Positions 1-38,897 of a stretch of 41,597 nt of DNA are shown piece after piece. The stretch is from a virus. Lineage: Duplodnaviria; Heunggongvirae; Uroviricota; Caudoviricetes. The stretch is taken from the IMG/VR virus record IMGVR_UViG_640753023_000007. One strand, written 5' to 3'. Position numbers and translations under genes: made by a program. Under the pieces are notes generated by a model. It made no database searches. It was not told where the DNA came from and was given only the letters and a program-made list of their open reading frames with translations. Within the stretch, counting starts at the first letter, position 1; each line of letters starts with the position of its first letter.

Positions 1-1143
1 CTATGCTGTTTTGATATCTACGATAATCCAGTCTTTACCACGATCATCATTGTATCGGTCGGTCATTTTTCTGGATTTATGGCCTAACAACTTTTGCGTA
101 TCCAGACCCTGTTCCCGATATAACCGTTCTGACAGAGATCGCTGCTCATGAAATGTGGGCGCAGTTCCTTGCTCCCATTTTATGCCACATTTTTCCCGGG
201 CCTTTTTAAAAGCCGTTGTCAGAGTATTCGCAGAAACCTGGTCTCCTCTGTTTGCTTGAGAGGTAGTGTGACGGTAATGGACCAGATATTTACTAACAAC
301 AGCATCCCTGCACTGAGATATAACTTCACGAAGGGTAATATTCAGAGCATCGCATTTCAGGTTAAGCGGAATAGCAAGTTTTGAACCGGTTTTTTCCTGA
401 GTAATGTGCAACATGTCGTCCCATATATCAGAGAATTTCAAATTGCAGATATCGCCTAAACGTTGTCCAGTAACAAGAGCAAGTAGCATGCCGCATTTTA
501 AATAGGGCTGCCGTCTGCTTACGCTGTCAAATATTGCCTGCCATTCGGGCAGTGACAATCTTTGGCGGTTTACTCGATTTCGTGGTTGTTTTGTTGCCTG
601 CGCTGGGTTAAATCCTGGCGGAACATGTCCTGCGTGTTGTGCTTCTTTGAAGACGTCGATCAACACCATTCTCACGACTTGCGCCATCCTGTTATGACCT
701 TCAGCCTTTACAGCATCAATTATTTCGGCAATATCAAGTGCGGTAATATCCTTGAGGTGTTGCATTCCACAATGCTCACGGAAAAGACGAATGGGTTTGC
801 CTTTTTGCCGATAGGAGTTGGGTCTTAGTTCATTATGTTGCAGCCTGTCCTCTTGGATAGAAATATATTTATCAAGCCATTCTGTCACCGTAATGTCTGA
901 GCGCCTGCCTTTCATTCTTTCCAGACGCTCATTGACGCTTAATATTTGTCTGGTACGTTGTTCAGCAATAATGGTATTTGCTTCAGTAGCAACTTGTTTT
1001 GCTTCATTCTCATCAGTTCCTAAGCTATGAAAACGACCGGATAGTGGATGTTTGTATTGCCAATATACCTTTCCGGTTCGCTTATCTAATTTGCAATATA
1101 AATTGGGTATAGAGATTTTGTGAGATCGGGGTCTAGCAGCCAT
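1..1143 (-). CDS. int: Tyrosine integrase (lambda Int family, divergent from lambda Int itself)
   Basis: 380-aa minus-strand ORF whose stop codon is at window positions 1-3; C-terminal region carries tyrosine-recombinase-like segments (TFHEQRSLSERLY, LLGHKSRKMTDRY) alignable to lambda Int; overlaps the upstream xis-like ORF as in lambda. Confidence 0.9.
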   Translation of the reverse strand: MAARPRSHKISIPNLYCKLDKRTGKVYWQYKHPLSGRFHSLGTDENEAKQVATEANTIIAEQRTRQILSVNERLERMKGRRSDITVTEWLDKYISIQEDRLQHNELRPNSYRQKGKPIRLFREHCGMQHLKDITALDIAEIIDAVKAEGHNRMAQVVRMVLIDVFKEAQHAGHVPPGFNPAQATKQPRNRVNRQRLSLPEWQAIFDSVSRRQPYLKCGMLLALVTGQRLGDICNLKFSDIWDDMLHITQEKTGSKLAIPLNLKCDALNITLREVISQCRDAVVSKYLVHYRHTTSQANRGDQVSANTLTTAFKKAREKCGIKWEQGTAPTFHEQRSLSERLYREQGLDTQKLLGHKSRKMTDRYNDDRGKDWIIVDIKTA

Positions 1144-5949: not shown

Positions 5950-6019
5950 ACGGATAGTCCTGGTATTGTTCCATCACATCTTGAGGATGCTCTTCGAACT
6001 CTTCAAATTCTTCTTCCAT
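5933..6019 (-). CDS. Small acidic ORF (28 aa) in the position of lambda orf28
   Basis: Hand translation MEEEFEEFEEHPQDVMEQYQDYPYDYDY; AAGGTG Shine-Dalgarno-like sequence 5 nt upstream of the ATG; overlaps the ral start. Confidence 0.4.
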   Translation of the reverse strand: MEEEFEEFEEHPQDVMEQYQDYPYDYDY

Positions 6020-14417: not shown

Positions 14418-14502
14418 AGTCAGAGATAACAATCAACTAATACTGTTTTGTTGATTTTTGCTTGTAATTGGCGTTCTGGTCTGATTTTTGTGGAGTAAGT
14501 TG

Positions 14503-14886
14503 ATGCGTGATATTCAGATGGTTCTTGAGCGTTGGGGTGCGTGGGCGGCTAATAATCATGAAGATGTGACCTGGTCGTCCATTGCCGCCGGTTTTAAGGG
14601 ATTAATTCCTTCAAAAGTAAAATCTCGCCCGCAATGTTGTGACGATGACGCGATGATCATTTGCGGGTGCATGGCCCGTCTGAAAAAGAACAACAGCGAT
14701 TTACACGATTTATTAGTAGATTATTATGTATGTGGTATGACATTCATGTCACTGGCAAGTAAGCATTGCTGCTCGGATGGTTATATCGGGAAAAGGTTAC
14801 AGAAGGCTGAGGGCATAATTGAAGGGATGTTAATGGCATTAGATATCCGGTTAGATATGGATATCGTTGCTAATAATTCTAATTGA
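14503..14886 (+). CDS. Q: Late gene antiterminator Q (DLP12 QuuD / phage 82-like type)
   Basis: Track ORF 14488-14886 begins with TTG; ATG at 14503 is preceded by GGAG; sequence [24 protein letters not shown]... with Cys-rich zinc-binding region matches QuuD-type Q. Confidence 0.85.
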
Positions 14887-15074: not shown

Positions 15075-16157
15075 TTAGAACTGATAAACCAGACCTACAG
15101 CGACGATGTCGTCGGTATCAATACCAGCTGTTTTGGTAAACTTACTATCGTCAATTAAGTTGATTTTGTAATCAACAAAAGTGGACATGTTTTTATTAAA
15201 GTAGTAAGTAGCACCGACATCGACATACTTGACTAAGTCTCGGTCACCATGAACACCAAGGTCTTTACCTTTTGACTGAAGGTAAGCAACAGATGGACGC
15301 AGACCGAAGTCAAACTGATATTGTGCTACTGCTTCAAAGTTTTGTGCTTTGTTTGCAATATGGTTATTACCAAAAACGGTCATATTCTGAGTTTCAGAAT
15401 ATGTGGTAGCCAGATAGATATTGTTCGCATCATATTTCAGGCCTGCAGCCCATACTTCCGCATTTTTGCCGGAGGCATTGAATTTGCTCTTACCATAGGC
15501 GACCTGACCGTCAGTGCGATCTGATTTAGCATAGGTTGCACCCACGCCGAATCCTTCATACTCATAAGTAGTGGAGAAACCGAAACCATCACCATTGGCT
15601 TCAGTTACGTCAGTGCGGTCATTTTTACCCTGATACTGAGCAGCAAAGTTCAGGCCATCGACCAGACCAAAGAAGTCGTTGTTACGATAAGTTGCAACAC
15701 CAGTAGTGCGACCAGTCATGAACACATCTGTTTGGGTCCAGGTATCACCACCGAATTCTGGCAGAACGTCAGTCCACGCACCGATGTCGTATGCTACACC
15801 GTAGTTACGGCCGTAATCGATTGAGCCGTAATCACCAAATTTCAGGCCTGCAAATGCAAGACGGGTTTTGTCTTTGGAAGAACCTTGAGATTCAGCACGG
15901 TTGCCTTTGAATTCATATTCCCACTGACCGAAACCAGTCAGTTGATCGTTGATTTGGGTTTCACCTTTGAAGCCAAGACGGGCATAAGTAGTATCACCAT
16001 CATCTGCATCATTAGAGGAGAAGTAGTGCTTGGCATTAACTTTCCCGTATAGATCCAGCTTGTTACTGTCTTTATTATAAATTTCAGCTGCCTGAGCAGA
16101 CATCGCCATCAGTACTGATGCAGCTACAGCAGAAATTGCCACTGTTAATTTTTTCAT
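15075..16157 (-). CDS. nmpC: Outer membrane porin NmpC/OmpD-like (lysogenic conversion moron)
   Basis: Track ORF 15075-16217; start at [23 protein letters not shown] (signal peptide); C-terminal residue F; general-porin family features; inserted antisense between Q and the lysis genes as in DLP12. Confidence 0.9.
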
Positions 16158-16745: not shown

Positions 16746-16961
16746 ATGAAATCCATGGATAAGTTAACAACGGGTGTCGCCTATGGTACCTCAGCAGGTA
16801 GTGCCGGGTACTGGTTTTTACAGTTGCTCGATAAAGTCACGCCCTCACAGTGGGCGGCAATAGGTGTGCTGGGTAGCCTGGTATTTGGCCTGCTGACGTA
16901 CCTGACAAACCTTTATTTCAAGATTAAAGAAGATAAGCGCAAGGCTGCGAGAGGTGAATAA
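16746..16961 (+). CDS. S: Holin, phage 21 S-type pinholin
   Basis: 71-aa [34 protein letters not shown]...; two TM segments; closely resembles S21 pinholin. Confidence 0.9.
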
Positions 16962-17458
16962 TGCCTCCATCATTACGAAAAGCCGTTGCTGCTGCTATTG
17001 GTGGCGGAGCAATTGCTATAGCATCAGTGTTAATCACTGGCCCAAGTGGTAACGATGGTCTGGAAGGTGTCAGCTACATACCATACAAAGATATTGTTGG
17101 TGTATGGACTGTATGTCACGGGCATACAGGAAAAGACATCATGCTCGGTAAAACGTATACCAAAGCAGAATGCAAAGCCCTCCTGAATAAAGACCTTGCC
17201 ACGGTCGCCAGACAAATTAACCCGTACATCAAAGTCGATATACCGGAAACAATGCGCGGCGCTCTTTACTCATTCGTTTACAACGTGGGTGCTGGCAATT
17301 TCAGAACATCGACGCTTCTTCGCAAAATAAACCAGGGCGATATCAAAGGCGCATGTGATCAGCTACGTCGCTGGACATATGCTGGCGGTAAGCAATGGAA
17401 AGGTCTCATGACTCGTCGTGAGATTGAGCGTGAAATCTGTTTGTGGGGTCAGCAATGA
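16961..17458 (+). CDS. R: SAR endolysin (lysozyme with N-terminal signal-anchor-release domain)
   Basis: 165-aa ORF with Gly/Ala-rich hydrophobic N-terminus ([20 protein letters not shown]) followed by lysozyme domain; matches phage 21 R. Confidence 0.9.
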
Positions 17459-17916
17459 ACAGAGTAACCGCGATTATCTCCGCTCTGGTTATCTGCATCA
17501 TCGTCTGCCTGTCATGGGCTGTTAATCATTACCGTGATAACGCCATTACCTACAAAGCCCAGCGCGACAAAAATGCCAGAGAACTGACGCTGGCGAACGC
17601 GGTAATTACTGACATACAGATGCGTCAGCGTGATGTTGCTGCGCTCGATGCAAAATACACGAAGGAGTTAGCTGATGCGAAAGCTGAAAATGATGCTCTG
17701 CGTGATGATGTTGCCGCTGGTCGTCGTCGGTTGCACATCAAAGCAGTCTGTCAGTCAGTGCGTGAAGCCACCACCGCCTCCGGCGTGGATAATGCAGCCT
17801 CCCCCCGACTGGCAGACACCGCTGAACGGGATTATTTCACCCTCAGAGAGAGGCTGATCACTATGCAAAAACAACTGGAAGGAACCCAGAAGTATATTAA
17901 TGAGCAGTGCAGATAG
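17455..17916 (+). CDS. Rz: Rz i-spanin
   Basis: Track ORF 17443-17916; ATG at 17455 overlaps the endolysin stop; N-terminal TM segment then coiled-coil-like region. Confidence 0.85.
17675..17857 (+). CDS. Rz1: Rz1 o-spanin lipoprotein, embedded in Rz in the +1 frame
   Basis: 60-aa ORF with lipobox (LVVVGC) and proline-rich mature region; GAAGGAG upstream of ATG. Confidence 0.8.
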
Positions 17917-17947
17917 AGCTGCCCATATCGATGGGCAACTCATGCAA

Positions 17948-18241
17948 TTATTGTGAGCAATACACACGCGCTTCCAGCGGAGTATAAATGCCTAAAGTAA
18001 TAAAACCGAGCAATCCATTTACGAATGTTTGCTGGGTTTCTGTTTTAACAACATTTTCTGCACCACCACAAATTTTTGCTGCATCGACAGTTTTCTTCTG
18101 CCCAATTCCCGAAACGAAGAAATGATGGGTGATGGTTTCCTTTGGTGTTACTGCTGTAGGTTTGTTTCCAACAGTAAACGTCTGTTGAGCACATCCTGTA
18201 ATAAGCATTGCCAGAGCGGCAGAAAACAACATTTTTTTCAT
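17948..18241 (-). CDS. bor: Bor lipoprotein (serum resistance)
   Basis: Track ORF 17948-18289; start at MKKMLFSAALAMLITGCAQQ (lipobox LITGC); 97 aa; matches lambda Bor. Confidence 0.9.
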   Translation of the reverse strand: MKKMLFSAALAMLITGCAQQTFTVGNKPTAVTPKETITHHFFVSGIGQKKTVDAAKICGGAENVVKTETQQTFVNGLLGFITLGIYTPLEARVYCSQ

Positions 18242-18721
18242 CTTATTATCCTGCATTGTTAAAAACGGCAGAATCCTATGTGACAACAATTAAACGATAG
18301 TTAAATGGATTGATGAAAATTAAAACTACACAGGTGGGCTCAGACTATTGGAGGAAGTTGGGGACACTCAGAATCCTGTGGAATGAAATAAACCGGTCTA
18401 TCCGTCCATTACCCTTTTAGCTGCGCTGTATCGTCGCCGTATTCCCGCATTAACCATGACCGTAGCCCGACGGGGAATTCCTTCTGCGTGAGTGTGCGGG
18501 AATAATTAAAAACGATGCACACCGGGTTTTTACCGCGTTAATGATTCGCGGGTTTATCCCGGTGCGATGGTGGAAGAAACAGGAAGCTGTATTACAGAAA
18601 GTGCTACTACTGTATCCCGATGCGATGTATGTAATGTGAGTCAGATAATGGCACAGGATGTGGTGATGTGGCAGTCTGGAACACAGGATATATTGTCAGA
18701 ATAAGACCCGTAGGAATAAAA

Positions 18722-19048
18722 ATGAAAAGACGCCTTTTACTACTTTTTCTGTTATCTGTCCTGGCAGTGGGATGCTCGCAGCAAAAAGCTGATGAGCCCC
18801 GGCAATTAGTGACGGTGTATCCACGATATCCGGAATATGCTGCAGCAAATTATATCAAGGGGCTGGTTGAGGTTAAGTTCGATATTGGTGCTGATGGGAC
18901 TGTGACACGGATCGTTTTTCTCCGCTCAGAGCCTCATAATTTGTTTCGTGATGAAGTGGTGAAGGCCATGGCGAAATGGCGATTTGAAAAGAATCGCCCC
19001 TGTCAGGGAGTGAAGAGACAATTTATCTTTACGCCGTCACGTCCTTGA
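18722..19048 (+). CDS. Lipoprotein with TonB C-terminal-like domain (moron)
   Basis: Track ORF 18668-19048; start at MKRRLLLLFLLSVLAVGCSQ (signal peptide plus lipobox) preceded by AGGA; body resembles TonB-C fold pattern (YPRYPEYAAANYIKGLVEVKFDIGADGTV ... VKAMAKWRF). Confidence 0.55.
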   Translation: MKRRLLLLFLLSVLAVGCSQQKADEPRQLVTVYPRYPEYAAANYIKGLVEVKFDIGADGTVTRIVFLRSEPHNLFRDEVVKAMAKWRFEKNRPCQGVKRQFIFTPSRP

Positions 19049-19908: not shown

Positions 19909-20457
19909 ATGAAGGTTAATAAAAAGAGGCTTGCCGAAATTTTCAACGTGGACCCGCGGACGATTGAACGCTGGCAGTCTCAGGGACTCCCTTGCGCCTC
20001 CAAAGGTAGTAAGGGCATTGAATCTGTATTTGATACTGCCATGGCAATTCAGTGGTATGCGCAGAGGGAAACTGATATCGAAAACGAAAAGCTCCGCAAA
20101 GAACTGGCCGATTTGCGTGCGGCAGCGGAGTCAGATTTACAACCCGGCACCATTGACTATGAACGCTACCGGCTCACAAAAGCGCAGGCAGATGCGCAGG
20201 AACTGAAAAATGCCCGTGAAGACGGAGTAGTGCTGGAAACTGAACTGTTTACCTTCATTCTGCAACGTGTGGCACAGGAGATTTCGGGGATACTTGTGCG
20301 TGTGCCGTTGACATTACAGCGTAAATATCCGGACATTTCACCATCACACCTTGATGTGGTGAAAACTGAAATCGCGAAAGCCTCCAATGTTGCAGCTAAG
20401 GCCGGTGAAAACGTGGGCGGGTGGATCGATGATTTCAGACGCGCAGAAGGCAGCTAA
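19909..20457 (+). CDS. nu1: Terminase small subunit (Nu1 homologue)
   Basis: 182-aa [31 protein letters not shown]... with conserved middle region ([47 protein letters not shown]) matching lambda Nu1; N-terminal DNA-binding part divergent. Confidence 0.9.
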
Positions 20458-22357
20458 TGCAGCCGGTGCGATAGCTACAGGGCTTTTATCTCTCATTATT
20501 CCTGTTCCACTGACGACAGTTCAGTGGGCCAATAAACATTATTACCTTCCTAAAGAGTCGTCTTATACCCCGGGGCGATGGGAAACACTGCCGTTTCAGG
20601 TTGGCATCATGAACTGTATGGGCAACGATCTGATTCGCACGGTTAACCTGATTAAATCTGCCCGTGTTGGTTATACAAAGATGTTGCTGGGAGTGGAGGC
20701 TTATTTTATTGAGCATAAATCACGCAACAGCCTTCTTTTTCAGCCCACGGACTCAGCTGCTGAAGATTTTATGAAATCTCATGTTGAGCCAACGATAAGG
20801 GATGTTCCTGCATTGCTGGAGCTGGCTCCATGGTTCGGAAGAAAACACCGCGATAATACGCTCACCCTGAAGCGTTTTTCCTCCGGTGTGGGGTTCTGGT
20901 GTCTGGGTGGTGCGGCAGCAAAAAACTACCGTGAAAAATCCGTGGATGTGGTCTGTTATGACGAGCTTTCCTCGTTCGAACCGGATGTTGAAAAAGAGGG
21001 TTCGCCAACCCTGCTGGGGGATAAACGTATTGAGGGCTCTGTATGGCCAAAATCCATTCGCGGCTCGACGCCTAAAATCAAAGGCTCCTGCCAGATCGAA
21101 AAAGCCGCTAACGAGTCGGCACACTTCATGCGTTTTTATGTGCCCTGTCCGCACTGTGGGGAGGAGCAGTATCTGAAATTTGGCGATGATGCCTCGCCTT
21201 TCGGTCTTAAGTGGGAGAAGAATAAGCCAGAAAGTGTTTTCTACCTTTGTGAGCATCATGGCTGTGTGATCCATCAGTCTGAGCTTGACCAGAGTAACGG
21301 GCGGTGGATCTGTGAAAACACGGGCATGTGGACCCGTGACGGCCTGATGTTTTTCAGCGCCCGGGGTGATGAAATTCCGCCGCCGCGCTCCATCACTTTC
21401 CATATCTGGACGGCGTACAGTCCGTTCACCACCTGGGTACAGATTGTCTATGACTGGCTGGATGCACTGAAAGATCCCAACGGCCTGAAAACCTTTGTGA
21501 ACACCACGCTGGGCGAGACCTGGGAAGAGGCTGTGGGCGAAAAACTCGATCACCAGGTGCTGATGGATAAGGTTGTGCGTTACACGGCGGCGGTGCCTGC
21601 CCGGGTGGTTTATCTGACGGCGGGCATTGACTCGCAGCGAAACCGTTTTGAGATGTATGTCTGGGGATGGGCTCCGGGAGAGGAAGCCTTTCTGGTGGAT
21701 AAAATCATCATTATGGGGCGTCCCGATGAGGAAGAGACGCTGTTACGTGTGGATGCGGCGATCAACAAAAAATACCGCCATGCAGACGGAACCGAAATGA
21801 CCATTTCCCGTGTCTGCTGGGACATCGGGGGGATCGATGGCGAAATCGTTTATCAGAGGTCAAAAAAACACGGTGTTTTCCGGGTGCTGCCGGTAAAAGG
21901 CGCATCTGTCTATGGCAAGCCGGTGATCACCATGCCAAAAACCCGCAATCAGCGGGGCGTGTATCTGTGTGAAGTGGGGACGGACACCGCAAAAGAAATT
22001 CTCTATGCCCGTATGAAAGCCGATCCCACGCCTGTGGATGAAGCCACGTCGTATGCTATCCGTTTTCCTGATGATCCGGAGATTTTTTCGCAGACAGAGG
22101 CGCAGCAACTGGTCGCGGAAGAGCTTGTGGAGAAGTGGGAAAAAGGAAAGATGCGTCTGCTGTGGGATAACAAAAAGCGGCGTAACGAAGCGCTGGACTG
22201 CCTGGTGTATGCCTACGCGGCATTACGTGTGTCCGTGCAACGCTGGCAGCTTGATCTGGCTGTACTGGCAAAATCCCGGGAAGAAGAGACGACCCGGCCA
22301 ACCCTTAAAGAACTGGCAGCGAAGCTGTCCGGAGGAGTGAATGGTTACAGTCGCTGA
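20429..22357 (+). CDS. A: Terminase large subunit (gpA)
   Basis: Track ORF 20387-22357; ATG at 20429 overlaps nu1 3-prime end; long stretches match lambda gpA ([25 protein letters not shown], endonuclease and ATPase regions). Confidence 0.95.
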
Positions 22358-35413: not shown

Positions 35414-38400
35414 ATGGGTAAAGGCAGCAGTAAGGGGCATACCCCGCGCGAAGCGAAGGACAACCTGAAATCATCCCAGATGCTGAGCGTGATAGACGCC
35501 ATCAGCGAAGGGCCGGTTGAAGGTCCGGTGGATGGATTAAAAAGCGTGCTGCTGAACAGTACGCCGGTGCTGGACAGTGAGGGGAATACCAATATATTCG
35601 GCGTCACGGTGGTGTTCCGGGCCGGTGAGCAGGAGCAGACTCCGCCGGAGGGATTTGAATCCTCCGGCTCCGAGACGGTGCTCGGTACAGAAGTGAAATA
35701 TGACACGCCGATCACCCGGACCATCACGTCGGCAAACATTGACCGTCTGCGTTTTACTTTCGGCGTGCAGGCACTGGTGGAAACCACCTCAAAGGGGGAC
35801 AGGAATCCATCGGAAGTCCGCCTGCTGGTTCAGATTCAACGTAACGGTGGCTGGGTGACGGAAAAAGACATCACCATTAAGGGCAAAACCACGTCGCAGT
35901 ATCTGGCCTCGGTGGTGGTGGATAACCTGCCGCCGCGCCCGTTTAATATCCGGATGCGCAGGATGACGCCGGACAGCACCACAGACCAGTTGCAGAACAA
36001 AACGCTCTGGTCGTCATACACCGAAATCATCGATGTGAAACAGTGCTACCCGAACACGGCACTGGTCGGCGTACAGGTGGACTCGGAGCAGTTCGGCAGC
36101 CAGCAGGTGAGCCGTAATTATCATCTTCGCGGGCGCATTCTGCAGGTGCCGTCGAACTATAACCCGCAGACGCGGCAATACAGCGGTATCTGGGACGGAA
36201 CGTTTAAGCCAGCATACAGCAACAACATGGCCTGGTGTCTGTGGGATATGCTGACCCATCCGCGCTACGGCATGGGGAAACGTCTTGGTGCGGCAGATGT
36301 GGATAAATGGGCGCTGTATGTCATCGGCCAGAATTGCGACCAGTCAGTGCCGGACGGCTTTGGCGGCACGGAGCCGCGCATCACCTGTAATGCGTACCTG
36401 ACCACACAGCGCAAGGCGTGGGATGTGCTCAGTGATTTTTGCTCGGCGATGCGCTGTATGCCGGTATGGAACGGGCAGACGCTGACATTCGTGCAGGACC
36501 GACCGTCGGATAAGGTGTGGACCTATAACCGCAGTAATGTGGTGATGCCGGATGATGGCGCGCCGTTCCGCTACAGCTTCAGCGCCCTGAAAGACCGCCA
36601 TAATGCCGTTGAGGTGAACTGGATTGACCCGGATAACGGCTGGGAGACGGCGACAGAGCTTGTGGAGGACACGCAGGCCATTGCCCGTTACGGTCGTAAC
36701 GTCACGAAGATGGATGCCTTTGGCTGTACCAGCCGGGGGCAGGCACACCGCGCCGGGCTGTGGCTGATTAAAACGGAGCTGCTGGAAACGCAGACCGTGG
36801 ACTTCAGCGTGGGTGCAGAAGGGCTTCGCCATGTACCGGGTGATGTCATTGAAATCTGTGATGATGACTATGCGGGGATCAGCATCGGCGGGCGCGTGCT
36901 GGCGGTGAACAACCAGACGCGGACACTGACGCTCGACCGTGAAATCACGCTGCCATCCTCCGGCACCACGCTGATAAGCCTGGCTGACGGACAGGGGAAT
37001 CCGGTCAGCGTGGAGGTCCAGTCCGTCACCGACGGCGTGAAGGTAAAAGTGAGCCGTGTTCCTGACGGCGTTGCAGAATACAGCGTGTGGGGGCTGAAGT
37101 TGCCAACGTTGCGCCAGCGCCTGTTCCGCTGTGTGAGTATCCGTGAGAACGATGACGGCACGTATGCCATCACTGCCGTGCAGCATGTACCGGAAAAAGA
37201 GGCCATCGTGGATAACGGGGCGCACTTTGACGGCGACCAGAGCGGCACGGTGAATGGTGTCACGCCGCCAGCGGTGCAGCACCTGACTGCCGAAGTCACC
37301 GCAGACAGCGGGGAATATCAGGTGCTGGCGCGCTGGGACACGCCGAAGGTGGTGAAGGGGGTGAGCTTTATGCTTCGCCTGACCGTGGCAGCGGATGACG
37401 GCAGTGAGCGGCTGGTCAGCACGGCCCGGACGACGGAAACCACATACCGCTTCAGGCAACTGGCGCTGGGGAACTACAGGCTGACAGTCCGGGCGGTAAA
37501 TGCGTGGGGGCAGCAGGGCGATCCGGCATCGGTATCGTTCCGGATTGCCGCACCGGCAGCGCCGTCGCAGATTGAGCTGACACCGGGGTATTTTCAGATA
37601 ACCGCCACGCCGCATCTTGCGGTTTATGATCCGACGGTACAGTTTGAGTTCTGGTTCTCGGAAAAGCGGATTGCGGATATCAGGCAGGTTGAAACCACAG
37701 CACGCTATCTTGGCACGGCGCTGTACTGGATAGCCGCCAGTATCAATATCAAACCGGGCCATGATTATTATTTTTACATCCGCAGTGTGAACACCGTTGG
37801 CAAATCGGCATTTGTGGAGGCTGTTGGCCAGCCGAGTGATGATGCATCCGGCTATCTGAATTTTTTCAAAGGAGAGATAGGGAAAACCCATCTGGCTCAG
37901 GAGTTGTGGACGCAGATTGATAACGGTCAGCTTGCGCCTGACCTGGCTGAAATCAGGACGTCCATTACGGGTGTCAGCAATGAAATCACGCAGACCGTCA
38001 ATAAGAAACTGGAAGACCAGAGTGCAGCGATCCAGCAGATACAGAAGGTTCAGGTTGATACAAATAATAACCTGAACAGCATGTGGGCTGTGAAGCTGCA
38101 GCAGATGCAGGACGGACGCCTTTATATCGCGGGTATTGGTGCCGGTGTTGAGAATACTCCCTGACGGTATGCAGAGTCAGGTGCTGCTGGCGGCGGACAG
38201 GATTGCGATGATTAATCCTGCGAATGGCAACACAAAGCCGATGTTTGTTGGGCAGGGCGATCAGATATTCATGAACGAAGTGTTCCTGAAATATCTGACG
38301 GCTCCCACCATTACCAGCGGTGGCAATCCCCCAACGTTTTCACTGACACCTGATGGTCGACTTTCTGCGAAAAATGCGGATATCAGCGGTAACGTGAACG

Positions 38401-38897
38401 CGAACTCCGGGACGCTCAACAACGTCACGATTAATCAGAACTGTCGGATTCTGGGAAAACTGTCAGCTAACCAGATTGAAGGTGATATTGTCAAAACGGT
38501 GGGAAAAGCCTTTCCGAGAAATGGCAGTTATGCCAGCGGTACAATAACGGTCACTGTGTACGATGACCAGGCTTTTGACCGTCAGATAGTAGTCCCCCCC
38601 GTTCTGTTTCGTGGGGGTAAGCATGAAAACTTCAACAGCAACAACCAACAGTCATACTGGTATTCAACCTGTAAGCTGCAGGTACTGAAGAACGGACAGG
38701 AAATCTTTCAGCAACCCGCGACGGATGTCAGCAGGGTATTTTCATCAGTCATTGATATGCCTGCCGGACACGGCCATGTCACCCTGACTTTCAATGTTTC
38801 TTCATATGGTGCTAATAACTGGACGCCAACGACCAGTATCAGCGACCTTCTTGTTGTTGTGATGAAGAAATCTACAGCCGGTATCAGTATCAGTTGA
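35414..38897 (+). pseudogene. J: Tail tip / host specificity protein J, split by an apparent +1 frameshift at 38159-38161
   Basis: Frame A ORF 35414-38164 ends ...[10 protein letters not shown] then TGA; the protein continues in another frame as [23 protein letters not shown]... to 38897; an extra C in the CCC run at 38159-38161 explains the shift. Confidence 0.8.

What the first reader, a model, noticed from the sequence alone, without database searches (positions are those of the whole stretch)
17948..19048. Bor plus a second lipoprotein with TonB C-terminal-like domain downstream of the lysis genes
Besides the known serum-resistance lipoprotein Bor, a 108-aa lipoprotein (lipobox LAVGCS) carries a pattern resembling the TonB C-terminal domain. 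A periplasm-facing TonB-C-like protein could interfere with TonB-dependent uptake of colicins or phages, or otherwise modify the envelope, but that is speculative.
Basis: partly seen in the sequence, partly recalled or inferred. Interest (0 to 1): 0.45.

Follow-up and report, generated by a model that had tools for sequence, protein, structure and literature searches.

The report
Prophage lipoprotein: a motor-less TonB domain
Next to the known Bor gene, this E. coli prophage encodes a small outer-membrane lipoprotein that is only the receptor-docking end of the TonB energy transducer; about 30% of complete E. coli genomes carry it, and its function has never been tested.

Summary
Window 17948-18241 (-) is Bor, 93% identical to lambda Bor. 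Window 18722-19048 (+) encodes a 108-aa protein with a lipoprotein signal peptide (AVGC, Cys18, +2 Ser) followed only by a TonB C-terminal domain. The domain passes Pfam (E 7e-13). The AF2 domain model has pLDDT above 95 and superposes on E. coli TonB at 0.9-1.5 A, including TonB bound to FhuA and BtuB.

The DNA is 100% identical to phage 21, where the gene is already annotated, and to the Nissle 1917 prophage. The gene is in 1616 of 5426 complete E. coli genomes. It is under purifying selection (dN/dS 0.12).

It belongs to a clade of single-domain TonB_C lipoproteins. Some sit between the lysis and terminase genes of unrelated prophages. Others are chromosomal.

Most relatives carry a near-perfect Fur box about 30 nt upstream of the start codon. 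That ties the family to iron and TonB-dependent transporters rather than to lysis. The window's allele has lost this box.

The likeliest mechanism is an inference, not a result: an energy-uncoupled, outer-membrane-tethered binder of TonB boxes that competes with TonB. I found no functional study.

The parts
17948..18241 (-). bor/iss: Bor outer-membrane lipoprotein, 97 aa; coordinates include the stop codon
   Evidence: Pfam Lambda_Bor E 1.1e-30. 93% identical to lambda Bor. Annotated as iss in Nissle 1917.
18242..18529 (.). Intergenic region upstream of bor, shared with phage lambda. It presumably holds the bor promoter. Similarity to lambda ends at 18529, which is the left edge of the TonB_C module.
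   Evidence: blastn of the window against lambda: 17900-18295 at 90% and 18419-18529 at 83%, nothing beyond.
18530..18721 (+). Upstream leader of the TonB_C gene, absent from lambda. It contains a conserved extended -10-like motif TGTCAGAAT at 18694-18702 and the RBS AGGA at 18712-18715. Relative to allele B, a 13-nt deletion removes the right half of the Fur-box-like sequence. The 45-aa ORF at 18567-18704 is probably not coding.
   Evidence: Alignment with allele B. No consensus sigma-70 site on the + strand. No Fur-box match of 12/19 or better. The 45-aa ORF is interrupted after 14 codons in allele B (read directly from the and 65 sequences).
18722..18775 (+). Lipoprotein signal peptide (residues 1-17) and lipobox A-V-G-C. 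Cys18, codon 18773-18775, is the predicted lipidated first residue of the mature protein. The +2 residue is Ser, which implies Lol sorting to the outer membrane.
   Evidence: Sequence. The lipobox Cys is conserved at residues 16-21 across the clade, and +2 is S, T or A, never D.
18776..18796 (+). Short tether, residues 19-25 (SQQKADE), predicted disordered
   Evidence: AF2 pLDDT is below 50 for residues 17-21 and the domain starts at about residue 26. The distance from Cys to the PxYP motif is 16-24 residues in all clade members.
18797..19048 (+). TonB C-terminal domain, residues 26-108, plus the stop codon. It corresponds to E. coli TonB residues 153-235 and lacks TonB's last four residues.
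   Evidence: Pfam TonB_C E 7.3e-13. phmmer alignment to 1u07, 2gsk and 2grx in register n+127. AF2 pLDDT above 95 with elements E28-30, H38-42, E47-55, E61-70, H76-83, E94-103. Foldseek TM 0.91-0.92.
16746..17916 (+). Context: a complete phage-21-type lysis cassette with pinholin S21, SAR endolysin, Rz and embedded Rz1 (17675-17857). The TonB_C lipoprotein is therefore not the spanin.
   Evidence: Pfam Phage_holin_2_1 2e-35, Phage_lysozyme 1.3e-45, Phage_lysis 1.6e-53, Rz1 2.9e-20.
19909..22357 (+). Context: terminase Nu1 and gpA. The module sits in the late operon between the lysis and packaging genes.
   Evidence: Pfam Phage_Nu1 1.1e-80. ORF list. Phage 21 annotation.

Best explanation
Window 18722-19048 encodes a 91-residue mature lipoprotein. 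[quoted passage not shown] It has no transmembrane anchor, no proline-rich rod and no link to ExbB/ExbD, so it cannot transduce energy.

The most likely mechanism has three steps:
1. The tethered domain sits at the periplasmic mouths of TonB-dependent transporters.
2. It pairs its exposed beta-3 edge strand with their TonB-box strands, and possibly with the TonB boxes of incoming group B colicins or with TonB's own C-terminal domain.
3. This occupies the site that TonB must reach, damping or blocking TonB-dependent entry of phages such as T1 and phi80, of group B colicins, and of siderophores.

Shown here: the gene, the lipobox, the fold, purifying selection, the conserved position in prophages, and Fur boxes in relatives.

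Inferred: outer-membrane location, TonB-box binding, and the inhibitory outcome.

In this prophage the gene lies in the Q-dependent late operon and has at most a weak promoter of its own. In relatives it is an iron-starvation (Fur) gene.
For: - Domain and fold: Pfam and TIGRFAM scores above their cut-offs. It is about 40% identical to E. coli TonB 153-235. The AF2 model matches TonB as seen bound to BtuB (rmsd 1.0 A) and to FhuA (0.9 A).
- Conserved residues: Y163/P164, G186 and the aromatic residues F180, F202, W213, Y215(F) and F230 of TonB are kept, and the beta-3 strand that pairs with TonB boxes is intact (TonB box to beta-3 pairing as described in PMC11658791).
- Architecture: the lipobox with a non-Asp +2 residue and a 16-24-residue spacing to the domain is conserved in about 25 relatives.
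- It is a real gene: dN/dS is 0.12 between the two E. coli phage alleles, with dS 1.46. It is present in 1616 of 5426 complete E. coli genomes.
- Same slot in unrelated prophages: after the spanins and before the terminase in E. coli, Salmonella, Klebsiella and Rahnella, with different holins, endolysins and terminases.
- Link to iron and the transporters: Fur boxes of 14-15/15 or 15-17/19 at -28 to -37 in Salmonella L004, L016 and L023-L028, with weaker ones in L021, L022 and allele B.
- Precedents: overexpressed periplasmic TonB domain inhibits TonB-dependent import (Howard 2001, cited in PMC9841981). Phage outer-membrane lipoproteins Llp and Cor inactivate FhuA from the periplasmic side (bioRxiv 10.64898/2026.03.26.714494).
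Against: - No binding or phenotype data exist. No paper on this protein was found.
- Many clade members are chromosomal and Fur-controlled. A blanket inhibitor of siderophore uptake induced by iron starvation would hurt its own host, so the effect may be selective, modulatory or even positive.
- The clade replaces TonB Arg166 with Tyr. From my own knowledge, Arg166 contacts the FhuA plug. The way the domain engages transporters may therefore differ.
- The window's allele has no Fur box and no consensus promoter, so expression in the lysogen is unproven. Late-lytic expression alone gives little time for exclusion to matter.
- PADLOC has no match.
Confidence: 0.38

Rival explanations
1. It is a positive or modulatory accessory of iron uptake rather than a blocker. 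The outer-membrane-tethered domain might help assemble or park newly made transporters. It might pre-organise TonB boxes, or dock periplasmic binding proteins near the transporters during iron starvation. Prophages would carry it as a fitness or virulence gene alongside Bor and SitABCD.
For: Fur boxes are conserved at the promoters of most relatives, and several of those are ordinary chromosomal genes. Phage 21 and the Nissle prophage also carry sitABCD, another iron-acquisition gene set.
Against: No known mechanism lets a motor-less TonB domain promote transport. Experimentally, free periplasmic TonB domain inhibits it. The window's allele has lost the Fur box.
Confidence: 0.2
2. It is an envelope-stabilising or serum-resistance-type lipoprotein. 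The TonB-like domain would bind peptidoglycan or another envelope protein and strengthen the link between outer membrane and cell wall, acting alongside Bor with no effect on TonB-dependent transport.
For: It lies next to bor/iss in this prophage. It is a small outer-membrane lipoprotein. From my own knowledge, TonB's C-terminal domain has been reported to associate with peptidoglycan and with outer-membrane proteins.
Against: Bor is absent from the Salmonella, Klebsiella and Rahnella prophage loci that carry the TonB_C gene, so the pairing with Bor is not conserved. Fur control points to iron rather than to general envelope strength.
Confidence: 0.15
3. It is a lysis accessory or spanin-like protein, as the PHROG 1267 label 'Rz-like spanin' and its position after the lysis genes suggest.
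For: PHROG 1267 E 5e-43, labelled 'Rz-like spanin'. It always follows the spanin genes in prophage copies.
Against: The window already has a complete Rz and embedded Rz1 pair. The protein has no Rz1 Pfam hit and has a globular TonB fold, unlike the short proline-rich o-spanins. Relatives are chromosomal, Fur-regulated and far from any lysis gene. The PHROG label most likely comes from the lipoprotein signal plus the position.
Confidence: 0.07
4. It is a functionless relic: a fragment of a host tonB gene picked up by illegitimate recombination and drifting.
For: Old annotations call it a 'partial' or 'truncated tonB-like membrane protein'. Many frameshifted or truncated copies exist in databases.
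Against: dN/dS is 0.12 between alleles that are 73% identical in DNA. A dedicated signal peptide and lipobox is conserved across genera. The clade is separate from enterobacterial TonB C-terminal domains. Intact full-length copies are in about 30% of E. coli genomes.
Confidence: 0.03

Closest known systems
TonB energy transducer, C-terminal domain (E. coli TonB residues 150-239; PDB 1u07, 1xx3, 2gsk, 2grx)
   Same: It is homologous, about 40% identical over 80 residues. The secondary-structure order is the same and the structures superpose at 0.9-1.5 A. The YP motif, G186, the five aromatic residues and the beta-3 strand used for TonB-box pairing are conserved.
   Different: There is no N-terminal transmembrane helix, no proline-rich spacer and no ExbB/ExbD coupling. 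A lipoprotein signal anchors the domain to the opposite membrane. TonB's last four residues are missing, and Arg166 is replaced by Tyr in the whole clade.
Phage superinfection-exclusion lipoproteins Llp (T5) and Cor (phi80, N15, HK022)
   Same: These are small phage-encoded outer-membrane lipoproteins that act on a TonB-dependent transporter (FhuA) from the periplasmic side. This is the functional model closest to the proposed mechanism.
   Different: They are not homologous and have a different fold. No PHROG or Pfam link to Cor or Llp was found for the 108-aa protein. Llp and Cor are specific for FhuA, whereas a TonB-box binder would in principle address all TonB-dependent transporters. The activity of the window protein is untested.
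Experimentally overproduced periplasmic TonB fragments (Howard, Herrmann, Stratilo and Braun 2001)
   Same: A TonB periplasmic domain uncoupled from the inner-membrane motor competitively inhibits import through TonB-dependent transporters (cited in PMC9841981).
   Different: Those are artificial, soluble and overexpressed. The window protein is natural, shorter, lipid-anchored to the outer membrane and evolutionarily distinct.
Phage 21 gene CPT_21_73, RefSeq WP_000830178.1 and PHROG 1267
   Same: The sequence is identical. The gene is already catalogued as 'TonB C-terminal domain protein' or 'TonB family protein'.
   Different: These are annotation only. No function has been assigned, and the PHROG label 'Rz-like spanin' is contradicted here.

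Membership tests
TonB_C domain family (Pfam PF03544 / TIGR01352) | Sequence score above the curated threshold | tested here: met
   PF03544 scores 49.2 bits against a gathering score of 24.6. TIGR01352 scores 47.4 bits against 27.1.
TonB_C domain family (Pfam PF03544 / TIGR01352) | [quoted passage not shown] | tested here: met
   The AF2 domain has pLDDT above 95. Foldseek against the PDB puts E. coli TonB C-terminal domains in the top hits, with probability 1.00, TM 0.91-0.92 and rmsd 0.9-1.5 A.
TonB energy transducer (NCBIfam PRK10819 equivalogs) | Whole-protein score above the equivalog cut-off | tested here: not met
   The best score is 69.2 bits against a cut-off of 315, and only the C-terminal 85 profile positions match.
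TonB energy transducer (NCBIfam PRK10819 equivalogs) | N-terminal inner-membrane anchor and proline-rich periplasmic spacer | tested here: not met
   The protein is 108 aa. Its N-terminus is a lipoprotein signal peptide cleaved before Cys18, and only 8 residues separate Cys18 from the domain.
TonB energy transducer (NCBIfam PRK10819 equivalogs) | Functional coupling to ExbB/ExbD and energy-dependent action on transporters | not testable with these tools
   None of the neighbouring ORFs I ran against Pfam is an ExbB or ExbD. Without a membrane anchor, coupling is structurally implausible; that is an inference.
Bacterial outer-membrane lipoprotein | Signal peptide ending in a lipobox [LVI..][ASTV..][GAS]C, with a +2 residue other than Asp | tested here: met
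   L-A-V-G-C18 followed by S-Q. The feature is conserved in clade members. Lipidation and localisation themselves were not tested.
Rz1-type o-spanin (the label on PHROG 1267) | Short proline-rich outer-membrane lipoprotein paired with an i-spanin gene and needed for outer-membrane disruption | tested here: not met
   The window has its own Rz (PF03245, 1.6e-53) and embedded Rz1 (PF06085, 2.9e-20). The 108-aa protein has no Rz1 hit and is globular. Relatives occur far from lysis genes.
Llp/Cor superinfection-exclusion lipoproteins | Homology to Llp or Cor | tested here: not met
   There is no Cor or Llp family among the PHROG or Pfam hits of the 108-aa protein, and the fold is TonB C-terminal domain.
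Llp/Cor superinfection-exclusion lipoproteins | Blocks phage infection through a TonB-dependent transporter | not testable with these tools
   This needs plating and uptake assays.
Fur regulon | A Fur box overlapping the promoter | tested here: not met
   The 300 nt upstream in the window hold no 19-mer match of 12/19 or better. Relatives meet the criterion: L004, L023 and L028 at 15/15 core, L024-L027 at 14/15, L016 at 17/19. The window allele carries a 13-nt deletion at that spot.
Lambda Bor / Iss (Pfam PF06291) | Sequence membership, for the neighbouring gene 17948-18241 | tested here: met
   106 bits against a cut-off of 25. 93% identity to lambda Bor.

The most novel reading that the evidence does not exclude
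Single-domain, outer-membrane-tethered TonB C-terminal domains form an unrecognised, Fur-controlled class of 'anti-TonB' gatekeepers. Temperate phages have repeatedly captured one to close the TonB-dependent entry route to rival phages and group B colicins. In the phage 21 and Nissle lineage the same prophage also supplies TonB-independent iron and manganese import (SitABCD, plus an extra porin in this window). The lysogen's iron supply would then be re-routed rather than starved.
Probability: 0.15. Interest if true: 0.75.

Novelty: new variant of a known kind. Interest (0 to 1): 0.5.

Why it matters
TonB-dependent transporters are the entry points for many phages, colicins, microcins and siderophore-antibiotic conjugates such as cefiderocol-type drugs. 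A natural, lipid-anchored TonB decoy is carried by about 30% of complete E. coli genomes, including the probiotic Nissle 1917, ExPEC strains and Stx phages. If it works as proposed, it would be a new kind of superinfection exclusion with broad reach. It could also alter iron acquisition and susceptibility to 'Trojan horse' antibiotics.

The family-wide Fur box found here makes the question directly testable: induce with iron chelation, delete the gene, and score TonB-dependent phenotypes. The work also corrects a database label, since PHROG 1267 'Rz-like spanin' is wrong for this protein.

If the protein proves inert towards TonB functions, this is an ordinary, already annotated accessory prophage gene.

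Tried and rejected
- **Colicin link.** A Serratia homologue (P0184) lies just upstream of, and in the same orientation as, a colicin-immunity gene. That gene faces a pore-forming colicin with a TonB-box-like DSMTV motif at residues 18-22. I dropped this as evidence for three reasons. The Serratia protein has no lipobox. It falls outside the lipoprotein clade. In other Serratia strains the same gene borders different cargo, a SIR2-type gene.
- **Spanin reading.** The PHROG 'Rz-like spanin' label is rejected.
- **Decayed tonB fragment.** Rejected by dN/dS of 0.12.
- **Promoter.** The consensus promoter and terminator scan found nothing on the + strand upstream of the gene. Only a conserved TGTyAGAAT motif was seen by eye in the alignment. 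It is weak evidence.
- **Defence and viral-fold libraries.** PADLOC gave no hit. BFVD gave no hit with E below 0.2.
- **Locus searches.** The search for related loci with the broad alignments A1 and A4 failed for lack of conserved stretches. The narrower A5 worked.
- **sitABCD co-occurrence.** All six allele-A phages carry sitA. Many sitA phages lack the TonB_C gene, and allele-B phages lack sitA. This is linkage within a mosaic, not proof of a functional pairing.
- **Literature.** Nine searches found no functional study. Howard et al. 2001 could not be opened and is cited second-hand.

Full report
**1. The observation**

The window is an integrated lambdoid prophage. Its layout is: integrase at 1-1143 (-), Q at 14488-14883, a porin gene at 15078-16157 (-), the phage-21 lysis cassette at 16746-17916, then the region in question, then terminase from 19909.

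The ORF ending at 17948 on the minus strand is Bor. It is 97 aa from MKKMLF and occupies 17948-18241. It scores Pfam Lambda_Bor E 1.1e-30 and is 93% identical to lambda Bor.

On the plus strand an ATG at 18722 is preceded by AGGA and opens a 108-codon gene ending at 19048. Its product starts MKRRLLLLFLLSVLAVGC|SQQ.

**2. The TonB resemblance is real**

- Pfam TonB_C scores 49.2 bits against a gathering score of 24.6 (E 7.3e-13). TIGR01352 scores 47.4 bits against 27.1.
- phmmer against PDB sequences aligns residues 24-103 with E. coli TonB 151-230 without gaps, at E 1.4e-14 and about 40% identity.
- An AlphaFold2 model built on 23 family sequences has pLDDT above 95 for residues 26-108. Its elements are E28-30, H38-42, E47-55, E61-70, H76-83 and E94-103.
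- Foldseek against the PDB returns only TonB C-terminal domains at the top: 1u07 (TM 0.91), 2gsk_B, which is TonB bound to BtuB (TM 0.92, rmsd 1.0 A), and 2grx_C, which is TonB bound to FhuA (TM 0.91, rmsd 0.9 A).

The protein is not a TonB. The TonB equivalog models score 69 bits against cut-offs of 265-448. There is no membrane anchor and no proline-rich spacer. Only about 8 residues separate the lipidated Cys18 from the domain.

**3. It is already catalogued but not characterised**

The 901 bases around the gene are 100% identical to phage 21, where the gene is CPT_21_73, 'TonB C-terminal domain protein'. They are also identical to phages ev017, PhiR47_2, PhiR57_1 and PhiR63_2, and 99.9% identical to phage Perceval. 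Many E. coli chromosomes, including Nissle 1917, match at 100%, annotated as 'TonB family protein' WP_000830178.1.

The gene alone is found in 1616 of 5426 complete E. coli genomes. Of these, 1224 carry this allele and 392 carry a second allele about 73% identical in DNA.

The phage 21 genome announcement says nothing about the gene. Nine literature searches found no functional work. A review of superinfection exclusion mentions only Cor and FhuA in this context.

PHROG 1267, to which the protein belongs at E 5e-43, is labelled 'Rz-like spanin'. That label is wrong for this protein, because the window has its own Rz and embedded Rz1 and the protein is a globular TonB domain.

**4. It is a working gene in a distinct family**

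The window allele and allele B (phage Lys8385Vzw, L005) give dS 1.46, dN 0.18 and dN/dS 0.12.

A search of 1.84 billion representative proteins and a profile search found many proteins of 107-133 residues with the same architecture. In a neighbour-joining tree of the domain they form a clade apart from enterobacterial TonB C-terminal domains. The clade's signatures are SEPxHLFD, KWRFE and Tyr in place of TonB Arg166.

In this clade the lipobox Cys lies at residue 16-21. The +2 residue is Ser, Thr or Ala and never Asp. The PxYP motif follows 16-24 residues later. By the established +2 sorting rule, this predicts outer-membrane localisation on a short leash.

**5. Genomic context**

Prophage copies occupy the same slot, after the spanins and before the small terminase subunit, in phages that otherwise differ:
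- S21 pinholin, SAR endolysin and lambda-type terminase here and in phage 21.
- Lambda-family holin, GH19 endolysin and P27-type terminase in Salmonella (L004).
- Another cassette in Klebsiella phage ST13-OXA48phi12.4.
- Holin 8/3_7, GH19 and GpA in Rahnella.
- Allele B in Stx1a phages, JLK-2012 and Lys8385Vzw.

Bor is absent from the non-E. coli loci, so the Bor and TonB_C pairing is a local accident.

Other clade members are ordinary chromosomal genes. One lies next to the bcs cellulose operon. Others lie near lacZ/lacI, DUF1440 and MlrA in Klebsiella, or near EAL and GNAT genes in Raoultella.

Relative to lambda, similarity stops at window 18529. The module is therefore an insertion beginning there.

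**6. The family carries Fur boxes**

The Salmonella prophage copy has a perfect TGATAATtATTATCA at -29 to -15. It overlaps a promoter-like TTGAGT-18-TATTAT. L016 has TATAATGATAATCGTTATC, 17/19 of the Fur consensus, at -36.

Nine further loci came from a genome-collection scan. Eight of them have a Fur-box match at -28 to -37:
- L023 and L028 match at 15/15.
- L024 to L027 match at 14/15.
- L021 and L022 are weaker.

The 41.6-kb window contains no match of 13/15 or better anywhere.

E. coli allele B has a degenerate box, 13/19, at the same place. The window allele has a 13-nt deletion that removes its right half. Phage copies thus tend to have eroded Fur control. That fits their additional transcription from the late promoter, which is an inference from lambda biology: the gene is co-oriented with, and lies between, the lysis and packaging genes.

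Fur control ties the family to the physiology of iron starvation, when TonB-dependent transporters are derepressed. It argues against a lysis role.

**7. Mechanism**

What can be stated from the anatomy is this. The protein is a TonB docking domain with an intact beta-3 edge strand, which is the element that pairs with TonB boxes (PMC11658791). It is held within a few nanometres of the outer-membrane inner leaflet and is disconnected from any energy source.

The simplest consequence is competition with TonB for TonB boxes, for the TonB boxes of incoming colicins, or for TonB itself. The precedent is inhibition of import by overproduced periplasmic TonB domain (Howard 2001, via PMC9841981). The analogy is the phage lipoproteins Llp and Cor, which inactivate FhuA from the periplasm. 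I put this at about 0.38.

The main reservation is that chromosomal, iron-starvation-induced relatives would be harming their own iron supply. The effect may therefore be selective or modulatory, or even helpful (rival, 0.2). An envelope-strengthening role alongside Bor (0.15), a lysis accessory role (0.07) and a dead relic (0.03) are less likely, for the reasons given under each rival.

**8. Verdict**

The interference hypothesis is plausible but untested.

The gene itself is not new, since it has identical annotated copies. Three things appear not to have been described in the literature I could search: its architecture as a motor-less, outer-membrane-tethered TonB domain; its clade; and the clade's Fur regulation. 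It is a moderately interesting and readily testable lead.

Noticed in passing
L004 3927-3941; L016 about -36 from the start at 386; L021-L028 at -28 to -37 from starts near 6001: Near-perfect Fur boxes sit at a fixed position upstream of most relatives of the TonB_C lipoprotein: 15/15 core in Salmonella, Raoultella lignicola and Klebsiella sp. R390, and 17/19 in L016. The window's allele lacks it because of a 13-nt deletion, and allele B keeps a degenerate 13/19 box.
   Followed up: yes
window 38159, within J (35414-38897): A one-base insertion (CCC where phage 21 and the Nissle prophage have CC) splits the tail-tip gene J into ORFs 35414-38164 and 38136-38897. Either this prophage has a defective host-recognition protein or it is a sequencing error.
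   Followed up: partly
just beyond the window end (41597); L019 7468 onward and L020 7461-10910: In phage 21 and the Nissle 1917 prophage, the genes that end this window are followed immediately by sitDCBA, a TonB-independent iron/manganese ABC importer. All six phages with this TonB_C allele carry sitA, but many sitA phages lack TonB_C.
   Followed up: partly
window 15078-16157 (-): A full-length OmpC/NmpC-type porin gene (Pfam Porin_1, E 1.9e-151) sits between Q and the holin, as in the Nissle prophage. Phage 21 has two tRNA genes there instead. The porin, Bor and the TonB_C lipoprotein make three outer-membrane accessory genes in one prophage.
   Followed up: partly
window 18567-18704 (+): The 45-aa ORF annotated as a hypothetical protein in phage 21 (CPT_21_72) is interrupted after 14 codons in allele B, although the DNA is homologous. 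It is probably not a gene.
   Followed up: yes
window 18419-18600: The DNA upstream of the module is more conserved between the two alleles (above 85%) than the coding sequence is (73%). Part of it, 18419-18529, is shared with lambda at 83%. It may hold bor regulatory signals or an unrecognised element.
   Followed up: no
L012 6001-8510 (Serratia ureilytica): A soluble, non-lipoprotein TonB_C protein lies upstream of a colicin-E1-type immunity gene. That gene faces a pore-forming colicin whose N-terminus carries a TonB-box-like DSMTV motif. In other Serratia strains the neighbouring cargo is a SIR2-type gene instead.
   Followed up: partly
window 19762 versus L002 6463-6554: The Nissle prophage has 91 extra bases, relative to the window, in the region between the TonB_C module and Nu1. 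Otherwise the two are 99.8-100% identical across this stretch.
   Followed up: no
L003 232-858 and L024 6749-7309: A DUF1440 membrane-protein gene lies next to the chromosomal TonB_C lipoprotein gene in Klebsiella sp. I138. One also occurs a few kb from the TonB_C gene in Klebsiella phage ST13-OXA48phi12.4. This may be a trace of capture from the host chromosome.
   Followed up: no
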